Shown: one piece after another, positions 30,439 through 50,575 of the stretch | Layout of the letters: every line of letters starts with the position of its first letter | Position numbering within the stretch: position 1 is the first letter of the stretch | Notes under the pieces: generated by a model | Databases searched by the model: none | What the model saw: only the letters and a program-made list of their open reading frames with translations | What the model was told of the DNA's origin: nothing | Sequence record: ON568341.1 | Source: Escherichia phage UE-S1 | Length of the DNA: 64,000 nucleotides | Direction: 5' to 3' (one strand) | Translations under genes and position numbers: made by a program

Positions 30439-30452
30439 ATAATGGGACAGCA

Positions 30453-30571
<119 letters not shown>

Positions 30572-30575
30572 AATA

Positions 30576-30652
30576 CGGGGTATAGCACAATTGGATAGTG
30601 CAAGAGAATTCTAATCTCTAGGTTGGGGGTTCAAGTCCCTCTACCTCGGCCA
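30576..30652 (+). tRNA. tRNA-Arg (anticodon TCT)
   Basis: Acceptor CGGGGTA/TACCTCG, D-arm GCAC...GTGC, anticodon arm AGAGA-ATTCTAA-TCTCT, T-loop TTCAAGT, CCA. Confidence 0.75.
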
Positions 30653-30675
30653 ATTTTAATTAAAGGTTAAAAACC

Positions 30676-31431
<756 letters not shown>

Positions 31432-32070: not shown

Positions 32071-32143
32071 GGTCAGTTAGTTCAGTTGGTAGAACGCTTC
32101 ACTTCATAATGAAGAACTTACAGGTTCAAATCCAGAACTGACC
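32071..32143 (+). tRNA. non-canonical tRNA-like element (8-nt anticodon loop, weak T-stem)
   Basis: Perfect acceptor GGTCAGT/ACTGACC and D-arm GTTC-AGTTGGTA-GAAC; anticodon arm CTTCA-CTTCATAA-TGAAG; T-stem ACAGG/CCAGA mispaired. Confidence 0.4.
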
Positions 32144-32151
32144 ACAAAAAA

Positions 32152-34878: not shown

Positions 34879-35263
<385 letters not shown>

Positions 35264-47732: not shown

Positions 47733-48686
47733 TTGAAAAAACTAGATTTGAATGCAATTGCAGATGAAGTACTGGACGAATGTTTTTCTAATGAAGAAGT
47801 CAATACACTTGATGCATTAGATTCAGTACAAGATGAAGATAAAGTTCAAAGTAATTTCAAGTTTAATATTAGTCTTAAGCGTCCACATAATGTAACAAAT
47901 GAAGATCTAATCCGTGATATTCAAGCTGGTATCAATGTTAAGAAAAACACTGAACTATTAGTTCGTTATAATTATGGACTAATTGTTGATGTTGCAAGTA
48001 AATGCACGTGTTATATCCCATTTGAAGATAAGATATCATATGGTATTGAGGGATTCATGCGAGCACTAAAAACATTTGATCTTAGTAAGAATGTTAAGTT
48101 CGTTACATACGCATCTTCCAGCATTTATATGACAGTATACAATGAAAGTTCAGATGCCAATCATCTGGTACATTTTCCACGCTATATGAGTGTTAATAAG
48201 ATACAAGTTAAACGCTTTTGTCATGAATATGAGCGTAAGCACGGTTGTCGTCCAACACCTGAACTAATTTCAGAGGGGACGGGAATTGAAATTCAACATG
48301 TAAAGAATTGTTTGTTATTCCAAAGTGAATATACTGCATTGGATGCACCATTGGATGGTGTTTCGGATGGTACGTTAAGTGATATTCTTCATACATCTGA
48401 TTGCGATTACAATCTTAATGTTGATAGTATTCGTGCACCTTTGCGTTATGTCATTAATGATCTAACACATGAATTGAGTACGAAAGAACGTGAAATTATC
48501 CAGCGTGTTCATGGTTTAGGTGAATTTAATCCTGAATCACTTCGTGAAATTGCTGATAGTGGTTTTGTTGATGACAATGGCAAATGTGTTAAATCAAGAT
48601 CATCTGTACACCGTAAATATAGTGAAGCTATAAAAAAACTTAAGAAATTAGTACTTGAAAAAGGGTACGAATACGAAGATTTCTAA
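47733..48686 (+). CDS. sigma-70 family RNA polymerase sigma factor (phage-encoded)
   Basis: Region 2-like LVRYNYGLIVDVASK...GIEGFMRALKTFD...KFVTYASSSI; region 4-like HTH LSTKEREIIQRVHGL...SLREIADS...SRSSVHRKYSEAIKKL. Confidence 0.65.
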   Translation: MKKLDLNAIADEVLDECFSNEEVNTLDALDSVQDEDKVQSNFKFNISLKRPHNVTNEDLIRDIQAGINVKKNTELLVRYNYGLIVDVASKCTCYIPFEDKISYGIEGFMRALKTFDLSKNVKFVTYASSSIYMTVYNESSDANHLVHFPRYMSVNKIQVKRFCHEYERKHGCRPTPELISEGTGIEIQHVKNCLLFQSEYTALDAPLDGVSDGTLSDILHTSDCDYNLNVDSIRAPLRYVINDLTHELSTKEREIIQRVHGLGEFNPESLREIADSGFVDDNGKCVKSRSSVHRKYSEAIKKLKKLVLEKGYEYEDF

Positions 48687-48693
48687 AGAACAA

Positions 48694-48722
48694 GGGTTGA
48701 CTTAGGTCAACCCTTTTTTTAT
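48694..48722 (+). terminator. rho-independent terminator (GGGTTGAC-ttag-GTCAACCC)
   Basis: Perfect 8-bp stem followed by TTTTTTTT; related to hairpins at 57163, 59958, 61299. Confidence 0.75.
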
Positions 48723-49255
48723 GGGACAAATTATAAAGTTATGATATACTTATTATGTACAATCCTGTTGAATGCAGAAATGCATATAAATGAGAACCTG
48801 ATCCTATCGAAAATGTAGATGGCAGATGAGCAGTTCAACAGTGCGATGAGCAGAAGAAACCCGTCAGATGTGGGCATAGTTTGAACCCCTCACGGCAATG
48901 CGGCTCAATAAAGAACCATGTTAGGATAGCTGATGGTTCCTTGATAGACATATAAGGATAACACCTTACGAATTATCTAAGGGAGAGTACTCAAATTTTG
49001 TACAAGAAAGTTGCGTCCAAAATTTGAGTACTCACATTAAGTATTTGATTGCATAGATACTTAATGAAGATACACTATGTTTAAAAGTGTAGACCGTCAT
49101 ATGAAACTGAAGTAGAGAGAAACAGGATGACCCGCTTTCGCACTCGTTATGAGTAATCTTCAATGCAATAGCTCTGATACCATCAGCGTCAAATTTCCCT
49201 CCGCAGTGGGGGGAAGAAAAATCACCTCCTCAAATCCCGTCAATATTAAAAGTCC
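48723..49255 (+). other. long non-coding region with structured elements (candidate ncRNA)
   Basis: About 530 bp without an ORF of 60 aa or more on either strand; locally GC-richer; 16-bp-stem hairpin at 48985-49033. Confidence 0.35.
48985..49033. repeat. inverted repeat: 16-bp stem (GAGTACTCAAATTTTG / CAAAATTTGAGTACTC), 17-nt loop
   Basis: Perfect complementarity between arms. Confidence 0.7.
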
Positions 49256-49284
49256 TTGACAGTTATTAATCATTCGCGTAGAAT
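49256..49284 (+). promoter_or_regulatory. sigma70-like promoter (TTGACA-N17-TAGAAT)
   Basis: Upstream of ORF 49349. Confidence 0.5.
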
Positions 49285-49348
49285 ACGTAGTATTAGAAGC
49301 GAACAGACATCTCGAAGAGATGGATGATTAACTATTGAGGAATTTCCA

Positions 49349-49558
49349 ATGAATTCAGTAATCTTTTTAGTAGTCGCTCTTTCAATTCAATCCGGTGTAC
49401 AAATTACCCCAATGAACTCAATGAACCAATGTTTTTCAGTACGTGACAGTACTTATGAACAAGTAAACCACATGTCACTTATGACAGTTAGTAAAGAAAG
49501 TATGTGGTGTTACAATAGTAATACTAACACAAAGCTTATTGTAGGACAAAATCAATGA
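49349..49558 (+). CDS. secreted/membrane mini-protein (69 aa)
   Basis: Hydrophobic N-terminus. Confidence 0.4.
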   Translation: MNSVIFLVVALSIQSGVQITPMNSMNQCFSVRDSTYEQVNHMSLMTVSKESMWCYNSNTNTKLIVGQNQ

Positions 49559-49786: not shown

Positions 49787-50575
49787 ATGAGCACTATAGA
49801 TGAACTGATTCGACGGAATTCAAAATACTACAAACCATCAGAAATTGTAGGTAACATTACCAAATCAGAGTTTGGTCCAAATACTCGAAAACTAATTCAT
49901 GTAATGTCACGTGATGGCTTTAAATGTGATTGTTGTGGTGAATCCAATGTGGTATTCACTTTGCATAAGCACAGTACTAAAGACCGTTATAAATTCAGAC
50001 CTTATGTACTTAAAGGGAAACGCCTTGTACGCATGACGTTAGACCATAATGTACTGGACTGTCTTCAGGGTGGTAATGATAAAGAGAACATGACTGCATT
50101 ATGTGAAGATTGTAACGCATTACGCCAACATAAGTTTGCTGAGTACAGTGAGTTTAAACACTGGTATCATAATGCGGAACGTTCAATCGAGCCGGACGTT
50201 AACTACTGCTTCATTGAGTACATTAAGAATGCTAAAGATACATATATTCTTAAATCTATGGAACCAATTACCGTGTTTCCAATGAACCTATTCACTACAT
50301 TAAAGAATAGTTTTATGGTAGGTGATATTGATGCATTCAAGTATTTTGACAAAGGTGCAAAACATTTTGAAGTTCAATGTCTTAGTACTGCACTATGTGA
50401 ACTTATTAAAATTTACATAAAAGATTATTTGGGTATTGACAATGTACGCGTACCAGAGTATACTTTTTCTATTGATTTCGATTGTGAATCAATCAAAGAG
50501 TTTGGGATTCTTTTCAATAAACAAATAGAACTTGCAATTCAAAACGAAATCAAGTACTATAATACTAACATTTAA
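49787..50575 (+). CDS. HNH (His-Me finger) endonuclease
   Basis: CDCCG ... LDHNVLDCLQGGNDKENMTALCEDCNALR. Confidence 0.7.
   Translation: MSTIDELIRRNSKYYKPSEIVGNITKSEFGPNTRKLIHVMSRDGFKCDCCGESNVVFTLHKHSTKDRYKFRPYVLKGKRLVRMTLDHNVLDCLQGGNDKENMTALCEDCNALRQHKFAEYSEFKHWYHNAERSIEPDVNYCFIEYIKNAKDTYILKSMEPITVFPMNLFTTLKNSFMVGDIDAFKYFDKGAKHFEVQCLSTALCELIKIYIKDYLGIDNVRVPEYTFSIDFDCESIKEFGILFNKQIELAIQNEIKYYNTNI

What the first reader, a model, noticed from the sequence alone, without database searches (positions are those of the whole stretch)
48694..49348. Unusually long (about 530 bp) ORF-free, GC-richer segment downstream of the sigma-factor gene
In a genome where genes mostly overlap or abut, the stretch between the sigma-factor terminator and the promoter at 49256 has no ORF of 60 aa or more on either strand. 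Its composition is distinct from the flanks (runs such as cccgtcagatgtgggcatagtttgaacccctcacggcaatgcggctc and ccctccgcagtggggggaag), and it contains a perfect 16-bp-stem hairpin at 48985-49033. Candidates are a structured ncRNA, a replication/packaging or other cis element, or a decayed gene.
Basis: seen in the sequence. Interest (0 to 1): 0.55.

Follow-up and report, generated by a model that had tools for sequence, protein, structure and literature searches.

The report
New large structured RNA gene family
The "empty" 660-bp gap after the phage sigma-factor gene holds a gene for a roughly 450-490-nt, intricately folded noncoding RNA of unknown function; it matches no Rfam family, occurs 4-5 times per genome in Rak2-like jumbo phages, and also sits next to the integrase in small integrative islands of enterobacteria.

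Summary
Window 48687-49348 is the largest stretch of the window without an ORF of 60 aa or more. It is GC-richer than 98.6% of 500-nt windows and contains a perfect 16-bp hairpin.

The region is a stand-alone RNA gene on the + strand. Its promoter is at 48722-50 and its body runs from about 48757 to 49245.

Homologues are 59-75% identical. On 38 of them, a fold of 15 helices and 88 pairs, with two pseudoknots, holds up:
- 94.7% of cells are paired, against 77% when shuffled and 36-44% when slid.
- 68 of 88 pairs carry changes on both sides.
- No shuffle out of 500 reaches the observed values.

G·U pairs outnumber A·C by 231 to 48, which fixes the + strand as the folding strand. There is no coding signal. 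None of the ten phage copies scanned matches any of the 4227 Rfam families.

Phage 121Q has four copies, all on the + strand, at positions that are conserved across genera.

Single copies also lie between an integrase and a CI-like repressor in integrative islands of Serratia, Enterobacter, Buttiauxella and Silvania. An E. coli defence island carries one downstream of its disrupted integrase.

The function is unknown. I favour a stable trans-acting folded RNA. An RNA-dependent replication or hitch-hiking element remains a live rival. I found no description of the family in Rfam 15 or in the papers searched.

The parts
48692..48715 (+). Intrinsic terminator of the upstream sigma-factor gene. 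It is context and marks the 5' limit of the unit.
   Evidence: 10-bp stem, 5 GC pairs, followed by a T run.
48722..48750 (+). Promoter of the RNA gene: TGGGACA, 16 nt, TATACT, with TG one base upstream of the -10 box. The transcription start is predicted near 48757.
   Evidence: scores it 9 of 12 with an extended -10. The motif TG[AG][AG]AC[AG]-N-TGnTATAAT is conserved upstream of every copy, phage and island. The same class precedes tRNA, replication and late-sigma genes in the window and in 121Q, almost only on the + strand. It resembles the 'TGAAACG -35' class described for phage CBB (PMC5259590).
48757..49245 (+). Body of the structured noncoding RNA. The 5' end is inferred from the promoter. 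The 3' end is uncertain: it reaches at least 49190, and conserved sequence continues to about 49244.
   Evidence: DNA conservation of 68-95% in 61 jumbo-phage records. Covariation. The G·U to A·C ratio of 231:48 selects the + strand. No coding signal.
48765..48841 (+). P1. The 5' segment 48765-72 (CUGUUGAA) pairs with 48834-41 (UUCAACAG). It encloses a GAAA-capped hairpin (48773-84) and P2 (48803-08 with 48818-22).
   Evidence: All 8 P1 pairs show changes on both sides, with up to 6 pair types per column and 95% of cells paired. P2 has 5 of 5 pairs covarying.
48847..48907 (+). P3 (48847-51 with 48903-07), enclosing P4 (48861-64 with 48892-95). P4 carries an apical arm of variable length; in this copy its loop is the conserved GGCAUAGUUUGAACC.
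   Evidence: P3 is 100% paired and 3 of its pairs swap AU/UA or GC/CG. P4 is 100% paired, with a CCGA/UCGG compensatory variant in 2 sequences.
48913..48939 (+). P5 hairpin: GAACCA pairs with UGGUUC.
   Evidence: all 6 pairs covary, with 3-4 pair types per column and 97.8% of cells paired.
48953..48968 (+). P6 hairpin (UAAGG with CCUUA). It is flanked by the near-invariant strands GAUAGACAUAUAAGG and CUAAGGGAG.
   Evidence: 3 of 4 pairs covary and the flanking strands are invariant or nearly so.
48985..49033 (+). It is a peripheral arm of variable length, capped by the conserved 17-nt loop module UACAAGAAAGUUGCGUC (49001-49017).
   Evidence: One search confirms the perfect stem; the three basal pairs covary; by the fuzzy-motif count, of 52 copies 29 have the module at this site, 2 at a second site in the P13 arm, 3 at both and 18 at neither. 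Some of the 18 carry it but were missed by the anchors or the mismatch limit, this copy among them (a module that moves between arms).
49035..49066 (+). P8, a 12-bp hairpin. Its loop, 49048-54 (AUUGCAU), forms pseudoknot PK1 with 49163-69 (AUGCAAU).
   Evidence: P8 has 12 of 12 pairs covarying. PK1 has 7 of 7 pairs covarying and 98.8% of cells paired; in the four 121Q copies the PK1 strands read AUUGCA/UGCAAU, AUUGUA/UACAAU, UCAUAU/AUAUGA and AUCGAAU/AUUCGAU.
49071..49091 (+). P9 hairpin: UACAC pairs with GUGUA.
   Evidence: 4 of 5 pairs covary.
49096..49162 (+). Pseudoknotted core. P10 is 49096-100 with 49127-31. P11 is 49108-12 with 49158-62. P12 is 49115-19 with 49135-39. P13 is the hairpin 49142-45 with 49151-54. 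P10 crosses both P11 and P12. The core contains the invariant strands GACCGU, GAAAC.G and ACCCGC.
   Evidence: P10, P11 and P12 are each 100% paired, with 3, 4 and 4 covarying pairs. Examples are GUCAU/AUGAC against GUUGC/GCAAC, GUUAC/GUAAC and GUUGA/UCAAC, and GAGAG/CUUUC against GGGAG/CUUCC and AGAAG/CUUCU.
49176..49190 (+). P14, a tentative hairpin (GAUAC-CAUCA-GCGUC) that ends in the conserved CGUCA motif.
   Evidence: GACGA/UCGUC in 17 copies and GAUGC/GCGUC in 7 are fully paired with one compensatory swap. Many other copies pair at only 3-4 of 5 positions.
49195..49244 (+). Conserved 3' segment. It comprises a GC hairpin, P15 (49195-202 with 49208-15, UUCCCUCC-GCAGU-GGGGGGAA), and the motif CAAAUCCCGUCAA (49231-43). 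In about 60% of copies a terminator-like hairpin plus U-run is inserted just before P15. This copy lacks it.
   Evidence: P15 is 86.5% paired, and its variation is mostly U·G/C·G on the + strand. The G6 run and the CGUCA motif are nearly invariant.
49256..49284 (+). Promoter of the downstream 69-aa ORF (49349-49558). It is context and not part of the RNA fold.
   Evidence: TTGACA-17-TAGAAT, 11 of 12 matches.

Best explanation
The gap holds an independent gene for a stable, elaborately folded noncoding RNA.

Transcription and fold. It is transcribed on the + strand from its own sigma70-type promoter (48722-48750), which starts immediately after the sigma gene's terminator. The RNA is about 430-490 nt long. 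It folds into two halves. The 5' half contains P1-P6. The 3' half contains P8-P13, with a loop-to-strand pseudoknot (PK1) and an H-type pseudoknot (P10 crossing P11 and P12). Long invariant strands sit at the junctions.

Distribution. This is one of 4-5 old paralogues per genome in Rak2-like jumbo phages. The same RNA gene is carried singly by small integrative islands of Enterobacterales.

Shown: the gene-like anatomy, selection on RNA base-pairing, the folding strand, the paralogy and the distribution.

Inferred, about 50% within this explanation: the RNA acts in trans as a folded particle, as a scaffold, decoy or catalyst. It would work on a host component, or on a factor that needs no dedicated co-inherited protein. 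The several paralogues would serve dosage or specialisation. It would be made together with the tRNA and replication-gene promoter class.
For: Gene anatomy. Every copy has a conserved promoter. About 60% have a covarying terminator-like hairpin plus U-run.

Fold. RNAalifold gives 45 of 77 predicted pairs with compensatory changes. The curated 88-pair fold on 38 sequences under 90% identical to each other gives 94.7% paired cells, against 77.1% shuffled and 36-44% slid. It has 68 pairs and 535 cells with changes on both sides, against 44.7 and 135 in the shuffles. The covariation score is 0.493, against 0.177 shuffled and 0.06-0.10 slid. No shuffle out of 500 reaches the observed values. Both pseudoknots covary.

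Strand. G·U/U·G pairs number 231 against 48 A·C/C·A.

Not coding.

Paralogy. 121Q has four copies, all on the + strand, including one between minus-strand genes. Their positions are conserved across genera.

Self-sufficiency. Islands carry the RNA. The two island proteins tested gave no tblastn match in jumbo phages: one had no phage match at all, the other a single weak hit to an unrelated 3.7-kb Pseudomonas phage record.

Not a known family. No Rfam family matches any of the ten phage copies scanned. NCBI's PGAP annotates nothing at the E. coli copy.

The conserved loop module sits on one arm or another in different copies, as peripheral tertiary-contact elements do in large RNAs.
Against: There is no expression data for any Rak2-like enterobacterial phage in the papers searched. 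The promoter, transcription start and 3' end are predictions.

In this copy and about 40% of others there is no terminator before the next gene, so the mature 3' end is unknown.

The 3' segment (GC hairpin plus CGUCA motif) and a further downstream motif are conserved with little covariation. That could reflect a DNA-level or single-strand-DNA role.

Several dispersed, co-oriented copies in the phage, plus a single copy in non-autonomous islands, is also what a cis-acting replication or hitch-hiking signal would look like.

No partner, ligand or target is identified.
Confidence: 0.85

Rival explanations
1. RNA-dependent replication origin, or a hitch-hiking cis element. The promoter fires a structured pre-primer RNA, in the manner of ColE1 RNA II or the R-loop origins of T4 oriF/oriG. 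The conserved GC hairpin and G-run just downstream would act at the RNA-DNA hybrid or on the displaced + strand to start DNA synthesis. Islands would carry one copy so that a helper jumbo phage replicates or mobilises them.
For: There are 4-5 dispersed copies per roughly 350-kb genome, all in one orientation. T4 is known to use several origins (my own knowledge).

The promoter class is shared with the SSB, primase, exonuclease and topoisomerase genes (PMC5259590).

The conserved 3' GC hairpin, G6 run and CGUCA motif show little covariation.

A single copy sits in small islands for which I found no other feature shared with jumbo phages.

A precedent exists: integrase-plus-defence islands are specifically packaged by a jumbo phage (PMC12595487, PMC12772148).

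The phage encodes RNase H and a UvsW-like helicase.
Against: Selection clearly maintains a complex tertiary-type fold, with two pseudoknots and invariant junctions, over about 400 nt across paralogues that are only 60-70% identical. To my knowledge no primer RNA requires that much.

In about 60% of copies a terminator-like hairpin lies between the RNA and the GC hairpin.

The islands have their own repressor and integrase and are not shown to be satellites.

No iterons or unwinding element were identified, and I did not search for them rigorously.
Confidence: 0.25
2. Cis-regulatory leader, such as a riboswitch or attenuator, controlling the downstream gene.
For: In this copy no terminator separates the RNA from the 69-aa ORF at 49349.
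Against: The downstream gene has its own near-consensus promoter at 49256. The downstream genes differ between paralogues. One 121Q copy lies between minus-strand genes. In islands the next gene is a convergent repressor. About 60% of copies have a terminator-like hairpin.
Confidence: 0.03
3. Decayed or very short protein-coding gene or genes. Several GenBank records annotate 3-5 tiny 'hypothetical proteins' here.
For: Records such as OR699282.2, PQ390715.1 and K64-1 list small CDSs under the region.
Against: Across 38 homologues, every + frame has at least 5 stops and every - frame at least 3. The median longest ORF is 41.5 aa on + and 55.5 aa on -. Column entropy does not differ by codon phase: 0.79, 0.87 and 0.77. 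Variation is compensatory within helices.
Confidence: 0.01
4. Repeated DNA element with no RNA function, such as a MITE-like mobile repeat, a recombination hotspot or a protein-binding array.
For: The element is multi-copy, and its sequence is shared between phages and islands. The E. coli island copy is 80.6% identical to a Serratia phage BF copy.
Against: No terminal inverted repeats were seen, and the copies are positional orthologues across genera. The strand-specific G·U excess of 231 to 48 and the covarying pseudoknots are not expected for duplex DNA sites.
Confidence: 0.03
5. Divergent member of a known large RNA family: a group I or II intron, RNase P RNA, tmRNA, 6S, or GOLLD/ROOL/OLE/HEARO.
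For: The size, the pseudoknots and the phage setting resemble several of these families.
Against: No hit to any of the 4227 Rfam models was found. This holds at the gathering score over the whole window, at E<=10 on the region, and at E<=1 on ten diverse copies. ARAGORN finds no tmRNA. The element is intergenic with its own promoter, so it is not an intron. The helix order of the core (P10, P11, P12, P10', P12', P13, P11') matches neither the group I P3-P7 arrangement nor the HDV arrangement, which I compared from memory.
Confidence: 0.02

Closest known systems
GOLLD, ROOL and OLE: large 'ornate' bacterial and phage ncRNAs
   Same: They are several hundred nucleotides long, with many covarying helices, pseudoknots and invariant junctions. 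They are stand-alone genes. GOLLD and ROOL are frequent in phages and prophages. Their function was unknown when they were discovered (PMC5737381, PMC12286853).
   Different: There is no sequence or structure match to their Rfam models. The host range differs: Enterobacterales jumbo phages and islands. This family has 4-5 paralogues per genome. It is not associated with tRNA genes at this locus. Whether it forms oligomers is not known.
ColE1 RNA II and the T4 oriF/oriG R-loop origins
   Same: A promoter drives a structured RNA of about 0.5 kb, or an origin transcript, with G/C-rich elements at its 3' end. T4-type phages have several origins per genome, served by middle-class promoters (my own knowledge). 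The promoter class here is shared with replication genes.
   Different: No homology was found. No hybrid formation, RNase H site or unwinding element has been shown. The fold here is far more constrained. A terminator-like hairpin often precedes the GC hairpin.
phi29 pRNA (packaging RNA)
   Same: It is a phage-encoded structured RNA whose loop-loop pairing covaries between relatives. Here PK1 has a different pairing sequence in each paralogue.
   Different: pRNA is 174 nt, single-copy, and works with a phi29-type packaging motor. The phage here has a T4-type terminase. Whether PK1 forms within one molecule or between molecules cannot be told from sequence.
The four RNA-seq-defined ncRNAs of jumbo phage PA5oct (PMC7318152)
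   Same: PA5oct is a distant relative of the Rak2-like phages. It has four + strand ncRNAs listed at 236-619 nt in long ORF-free gaps, and two of them are highly expressed.
   Different: nhmmer finds no similarity at any of the four loci, even at E<=100 with filters off. The signature motifs are absent from the ncRNA003 and ncRNA004 loci, where I searched for them. At most they are analogues.
Cis signals borrowed by phage satellites from their helpers (P4 cos, cos-type PICIs) and the jumbo-phage-transduced islands of Pseudomonas (PMC12595487)
   Same: Small integrase-bearing islands, one of which carries a candidate defence system, share a single noncoding unit with a family of lytic jumbo phages. 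I found no other shared feature.
   Different: Mobilisation of these enterobacterial islands by any phage is untested. The shared unit is an RNA gene under structural selection, not a short DNA site. The Pseudomonas study reports no shared RNA.

Membership tests
Any Rfam 15 family (including GOLLD, ROOL, OLE, HEARO, RNase P, tmRNA, 6S, group I/II introns, CsrB) | A covariance-model match at or near the family's gathering score | tested here: not met
   at the gathering score, only tRNAs elsewhere in the window; at E<=10 on 48600-49450, only scattered sub-threshold sRNA and miRNA noise; ten diverse copies at E<=1, with nothing on the element.
Group I intron | Interrupts a host gene, with exons that join into an ORF or RNA | tested here: not met
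   The element is intergenic, lies between a terminator and a promoter, and has its own promoter. The paralogues lie between unrelated genes.
Group I intron | A P3-P7 pseudoknot enclosing P4-P6, followed by P8 within P7 | tested here: not met
   The helix order found is P10, P11, P12, P10', P12', P13, P11'. This is not the group I order, which I compared from memory.
tRNA / tmRNA | Cloverleaf or tRNA-like domain detected by ARAGORN | tested here: not met
   the 8 tRNAs lie at 29.5-36.8 kb, and none is in 48.6-49.4 kb.
Riboswitch / cis leader | Lies in the 5' UTR of the gene it regulates, with an expression platform, and has consistent downstream gene families | tested here: not met
   The downstream gene has a separate promoter. 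Neighbours are inconsistent and sometimes on the opposite strand.
ColE1 RNA II-type or T4 R-loop origin | A persistent RNA-DNA hybrid and a primer 3' end at the site where replication starts | not testable with these tools
   This needs replication-initiation mapping. Only circumstantial features were seen: copy number, orientation, promoter class and the 3' GC hairpin.
Protein-coding gene or pseudogene | A conserved open frame, or 3-base periodicity of substitutions | tested here: not met
   at least 3-5 stops in every frame of every homologue, and flat entropy across codon phases.
Structured ncRNA gene (generic) | Compensatory base-pair changes well above controls, on one strand | tested here: met
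   (0 of 500 shuffles reach the observed values; slid controls are 5-8 times lower). (G·U to A·C ratio of 231:48).
Structured ncRNA gene (generic) | Its own transcription signals, and a transcript observed | tested here: inconclusive
   A conserved promoter and a frequent terminator-like hairpin are predicted. No transcriptome of a Rak2-like enterobacterial phage was found.
Phage satellite cis signal | The island is mobilised by the phage that shares the element, and the element is required in cis | not testable with these tools
   Only the sharing of the element is shown.

The most novel reading that the evidence does not exclude
The RNA unit is the molecular handle that links small integrative islands of Enterobacterales to Rak2-like jumbo phages. 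In the phage it would be a multi-copy, RNA-structure-dependent replication or packaging initiation element, or a factor that the phage machinery must bind. Islands would carry one copy so that they are replicated or mobilised by the jumbo phage, or so that they interfere with it. That would make them the first enterobacterial jumbo-phage satellites, or an RNA-based anti-jumbo-phage decoy, and it would define the signal they use.
Probability: 0.2. Interest if true: 0.92.

Novelty: categorically new. Interest (0 to 1): 0.82.

Why it matters
Large RNAs with this much conserved tertiary-type structure are rare. Historically they have turned out to be ribozymes, ribonucleoprotein cores or self-assembling particles.

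This one is found in isolated, culturable coliphages (121Q, PBECO4, phAPEC6, Sharanji) and in E. coli, Serratia and Enterobacter genome assemblies. It is therefore directly open to genetics, structure probing and cryo-EM.

Its distribution is unusual: 4-5 old paralogues in lytic jumbo phages, and a single copy in small integrative islands, usually beside the integrase. That points to a function at the interface between phage, host and mobile island. It may offer a concrete lead on the open question of how islands exploit jumbo phages.

There is also a practical consequence. Current annotations leave the region blank or fill it with spurious micro-ORFs.

Tried and rejected
- **Rfam.** I scanned at the gathering score and at permissive E-values, on the window and on ten other copies. 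Nothing matched.
- **A second copy in the window.** blastn with a 7-nt word and nhmmer found none. Only terminator-like repeats match elsewhere.
- **PA5oct's four ncRNAs.** All four loci were fetched and nhmmer was run with filters off. I searched the ncRNA003 and ncRNA004 loci for the signature motifs and read the ncRNA001 and ncRNA002 sequences by eye. I found no homology.
- **Coding potential.** Rejected.
- **A long-range pairing of GAUG (about 48825) with the 3' CGUC, proposed by RNAalifold.** It is invariant, and the GUUG variants are not compensated, so I dropped it.
- **RNAalifold's small hairpin at 48831-43.** It is replaced by the much better supported P1.
- **A UAAGG/CCGUU 'P7' closing helix.** It does not vary, so I could not evaluate it and left it out.
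- **P14.** Support is only moderate.
- **Proteins shared between islands and jumbo phages.** Two were tested by tblastn. One had no match at all. The other had only a weak hit to an unrelated Pseudomonas phage record.
- **Plasmids.** No match.
- **Temperate phages.** The only records in the GenBank phage collection that match are jumbo phages of about 310-390 kb.
- **Literature.** Searches and targeted reading of the Sharanji, CBB, fEgEco12 and phage-structured-RNA papers found no description of the element.
- **Thermodynamic stability as a strand discriminator.** Both strands fold better than shuffles, so it does not discriminate.
Full report
**1. The observation**

The sigma-factor ORF (47733-48686, +) is followed by an intrinsic terminator at 48692-48715. 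The next ORF starts at 49349 and has a near-consensus promoter at 49256-49284. No ORF of 60 aa or more overlaps 48687-49348 on either strand; the largest is 48 aa. This is the longest such stretch in the window. GC of 48751-49250 is 0.394, against 0.326 ± 0.032 for all 500-nt windows, which places it at the 98.6th percentile. The 16-bp hairpin 48985-49000 / 49018-49033 is perfect.

**2. The region is conserved and repeated**

A search of the GenBank phage collection shows that the window belongs to a 121Q/PBECO4-like (Asteriusvirus) jumbo phage. The core, 48797-49245, is 91-95% identical in 33 records. It is still 68-74% identical in other lineages: Erwinia/Serratia BF-like phages, GAP32, CBB, Yersinia fHe-Yen9, Munch/7t3 and Xanthomonas XbC2/XaC1. 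In nearly all of these nothing is annotated there. Each record holds 3-5 matching places.

I assembled 343.9 kb of 121Q and found four copies, all on the + strand:
- Copy A, 90326-90794, after the sigma gene. This is the orthologue of the window copy.
- Copy B, 192826-193316.
- Copy C, 247499-248051.
- Copy D, 326646-327149, between two minus-strand genes.

The window itself holds only copy A. The copies are positional orthologues across genera. Munch has one between the recombination endonuclease and the baseplate gene, matching copy D. XbC2 and XaC1 have one upstream of the adenine methyltransferase and cytidylyltransferase genes, matching copy B. The paralogues are therefore old.

**3. Anatomy of the unit**

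Alignments show the same layout everywhere.

- **Promoter.** It reads TG[AG][AG]AC[AG], 16 nt, TGnTATAAT. In the window it is 48722-48750 (TGGGACA ... TGATATACT).
- **Body.** About 400 nt, in which long invariant strands alternate with helices that vary by compensatory change. The invariant strands include CGAAAAUGUAGAUGGCAGAUGAG, ACCCGU, CACGGCAAUGCGGC, UAUAAAG, GAUAGACAUAUAAGG, UAAGGGAG, GACCGUU, AUAGAGAGAAACAG, ACCCGCUUUCG and CGUCA. Arms of variable length are inserted at fixed points.
- **Optional terminator-like hairpin.** About 60% of copies have such a hairpin followed by U6-7. It is absent from the window copy.
- **3' segment.** A nearly invariant GC hairpin with a G6 run and the motif CAAAUCYCGUCA (window 49195-49244).

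The same promoter class occurs at five places on the + strand of the window and none on the - strand. One of the five lies in front of a tRNA cluster. In 121Q it occurs 21 times on + and 4 times on -, in front of the SSB, primase, exonuclease, topoisomerase II and late-sigma genes. It resembles the 'TGAAACG -35 / TATA -10' class reported upstream of DNA-synthesis genes in phage CBB (PMC5259590). Island copies carry this promoter too, and I found no phage sigma gene near them, so host RNA polymerase probably recognises it. That step is an inference.

**4. RNA structure**

RNAalifold on 20 copies gave 77 pairs, 45 of them with compensatory changes. My own scans for covarying columns added two features. 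One is a long-range helix P1 that uses the 5' end. The other is two pseudoknots.

I tested the curated fold on 38 copies that are under 90% identical to each other and 59-75% identical to the window (alignment A2). The fold has 15 helices and 88 pairs. The table gives the results.

| Measure | Observed | Shuffled | Slid registers |
|---|---|---|---|
| Cells paired | 94.7% | 77.1 ± 0.4% | 36-44% |
| Pairs with changes on both sides | 68 of 88 | 44.7 | 25-33 |
| Cells with changes on both sides | 535 | 135 | 64-89 |
| Covariation score | 0.493 | 0.177 | 0.06-0.10 |

No shuffle out of 500 reached the observed value on any of the five measures the tool reports. The tool's own caveat applies: related sequences inflate the shuffle control. 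The slid control keeps relatedness, and it is 5-8 times lower than the observed score.

Helices P3, P4, P10, P11 and P12 are 100% paired. PK1 joins the loop of P8 to a strand 110 nt downstream. It has 7 of 7 covarying pairs, and the pairing sequence differs between the paralogue types of 121Q.

G·U pairs outnumber A·C by 231 to 48. The + strand therefore folds, in agreement with the promoter and terminator orientation.

Its 17-nt loop, UACAAGAAAGUUGCGUC, is a conserved module. By the fuzzy-motif count, of 52 copies 29 have it on this arm, 2 on the P13 arm, 3 on both and 18 on neither. Some of the 18 carry it but were missed by the anchors or the mismatch limit, the window copy among them.

There is no coding signal.

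**5. Not a known family**

No Rfam 15 model matches at the gathering score or at permissive E-values, for the window copy or for ten other copies. ARAGORN finds nothing here. NCBI's PGAP annotates nothing at the E. coli copy.

The four RNA-seq-defined ncRNAs of the distant relative PA5oct (PMC7318152) show no detectable similarity. I found no mention of the element in the Sharanji, CBB or fEgEco12 genome papers, in a survey of structured RNAs in phages, or in full-text searches. I also found no transcriptome of a Rak2-like enterobacterial phage, so expression is predicted and not observed.

**6. Distribution beyond jumbo phages**

Pattern scans of IMG/VR, metagenomes and one genome per species, filtered with a profile HMM, gave about 150 loci. 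Most lie in contigs of 350-371 kb or in fragments of such contigs. K64-1 (Alcyoneusvirus) has a divergent copy.

Eight hits were in bacterial genome records, which I did not expect. Seven are from Enterobacterales, including the complete Serratia fonticola GTA-SR07 chromosome, Enterobacter chinensis, Silvania hatchlandensis, Buttiauxella and Serratia sp. 2723. The eighth is a 2.8-kb contig binned as Clostridium, which is probably misbinned. In the enterobacterial loci the RNA lies at the edge of an integrated element. Upstream is an integrase, either a tyrosine recombinase or a large serine recombinase. Downstream is a convergent CI-like repressor (HTH plus S24 peptidase). Core chromosomal genes lie just outside. 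Clustering the neighbours of 91 loci recovers the order int, RNA, repressor (convergent), a 90-aa ORF, a 286-aa ORF and LprI; the repressor is present in at least 12 loci.

Two of 5426 complete E. coli genomes carry a copy. In strain LR-29-1 it sits in a roughly 10.8-kb island between ffs and ybaA. That island has an IS3-disrupted integrase and the candidate defence system PDC-M45.

The island RNAs keep the promoter, every helix and the 3' segment. The E. coli island copy is 80.6% identical to a Serratia phage BF copy. That is closer than the roughly 70% between most 121Q paralogues in the core, so islands and jumbo phages have exchanged the gene.

Two island proteins tested have no homologue in jumbo phages. 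No temperate phage or plasmid in the collections carries the RNA.

**7. What it most likely is and does**

Shown: an RNA-gene-like unit under strong selection for a complex fold on the + strand. It is multi-copy in the phage and portable between phages and islands.

Inferred: it is transcribed by host RNA polymerase together with the tRNA and replication-gene class, and it accumulates as a stable folded RNA.

I put the trans-acting reading at about 50%. On that reading the folded RNA binds or acts on a component available in both settings. This fits three facts: the RNA travels without a dedicated protein, selection acts on its tertiary-type architecture, and it is kept in several diverged copies.

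The main rival, at about 25%, is that the unit is an RNA-dependent origin or another cis-acting signal, and that islands copy it in order to be replicated or mobilised by jumbo phages. Four things favour it:
- the dispersed, co-oriented copies;
- the promoter class;
- the 3' GC hairpin, G-run and downstream motif, which are conserved but covary little;
- the recent demonstration that integrase-plus-defence islands can be satellites of a jumbo phage (PMC12595487, PMC12772148).

The leader, pseudogene, DNA-repeat and known-family readings are each contradicted by tests run here.

**8. Verdict**

It is a previously undescribed class of large structured RNA, as far as Rfam 15 and the searchable literature show. 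Its distribution ties lytic jumbo phages to integrative islands.

Confidence in 'structured RNA gene family' is high, at about 0.85-0.9. Confidence in any specific function is low. Interest is scored at 0.82.

Noticed in passing
window 30653-31070: The second-largest stretch of the window without an ORF of 60 aa or more runs 30439-31070. It holds tRNA-Ser and tRNA-Arg (30482-30652) and then about 418 bp with no ORF and no annotation. The RNA-type promoter class sits at 30443. It could hold another noncoding feature.
   Followed up: no
window 32071-32145 and 34918-35009: ARAGORN reports a tRNA with a four-base anticodon 'tcat' (an 8-nt anticodon loop). It also reports a tRNA-Ser with anticodon ACT, meaning an unmodified A at position 34. 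Both pass the Rfam tRNA threshold.
   Followed up: no
window 49256-49300; loci L010, L013, L020 and L022 downstream of the RNA; island loci L123 and L127: A further conserved segment follows the RNA unit in many phage and island copies: GAATTGAG..CAGTACAAACGAAGTGA. In the window the comparable sequence is TAGAATACGTAGTATTAGAAGCGAAC, overlapping the strong promoter. Its role is unknown. It may be a conserved leader or part of the unit.
   Followed up: partly
L242 (E. coli LR-29-1, NZ_AP027515.1, 3470260-3488515), RNA at L242:8959-9549: A roughly 10.8-kb island lies between ffs and ybaA. It carries the RNA gene, an IS3-disrupted tyrosine integrase and the PADLOC candidate defence system PDC-M45 (dual-OB plus DUF488 proteins). 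PGAP annotates nothing at the RNA.
   Followed up: partly
L129, L123, L127, L117, L134, L128, L118 (bacterial genome records): In most of these enterobacterial loci the RNA gene lies between an integrase (tyrosine or large serine type) and a convergent CI-like repressor. In L129 it follows a serine recombinase and two ParB-like genes, next to rof. These may be uncharacterised satellites or defence islands related to jumbo-phage biology.
   Followed up: partly
GenBank records OR699282.2, PQ390715.1, PP886230.1, NC_027399.1 (L243) and others: Several relatives annotate 2-5 tiny 'hypothetical protein' CDSs over the RNA gene. In 121Q the 51-aa gp516 lies inside copy C. These are almost certainly spurious calls.
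   Followed up: yes
window 2583, 30443, 33978, 48722, 59460 (+ strand): The promoter class TG[AG][AG]AC[AG]-N-TGnTATAAT is found only on the + strand of the window. In 121Q it precedes the SSB, primase, exonuclease, topoisomerase II and late-sigma genes. It probably corresponds to the middle class noted for CBB and GAP32, and possibly to the regulon of the sigma factor encoded just upstream of this RNA.
   Followed up: partly
L245 (PA5oct ncRNA004, 3' end): The unrelated PA5oct ncRNA004 also ends in a C-run/G-run hairpin (UUCCUUCCC-AAAC-GGGGAGGAA), reminiscent of hairpin P15 here. This may be coincidence, or a shared type of 3'-end structure.
   Followed up: no
window 49787-50575: An HNH endonuclease ORF of 262 aa lies three genes downstream of the RNA. 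121Q copy C also has an HNH gene nearby. No consistent association holds across the copies.
   Followed up: partly
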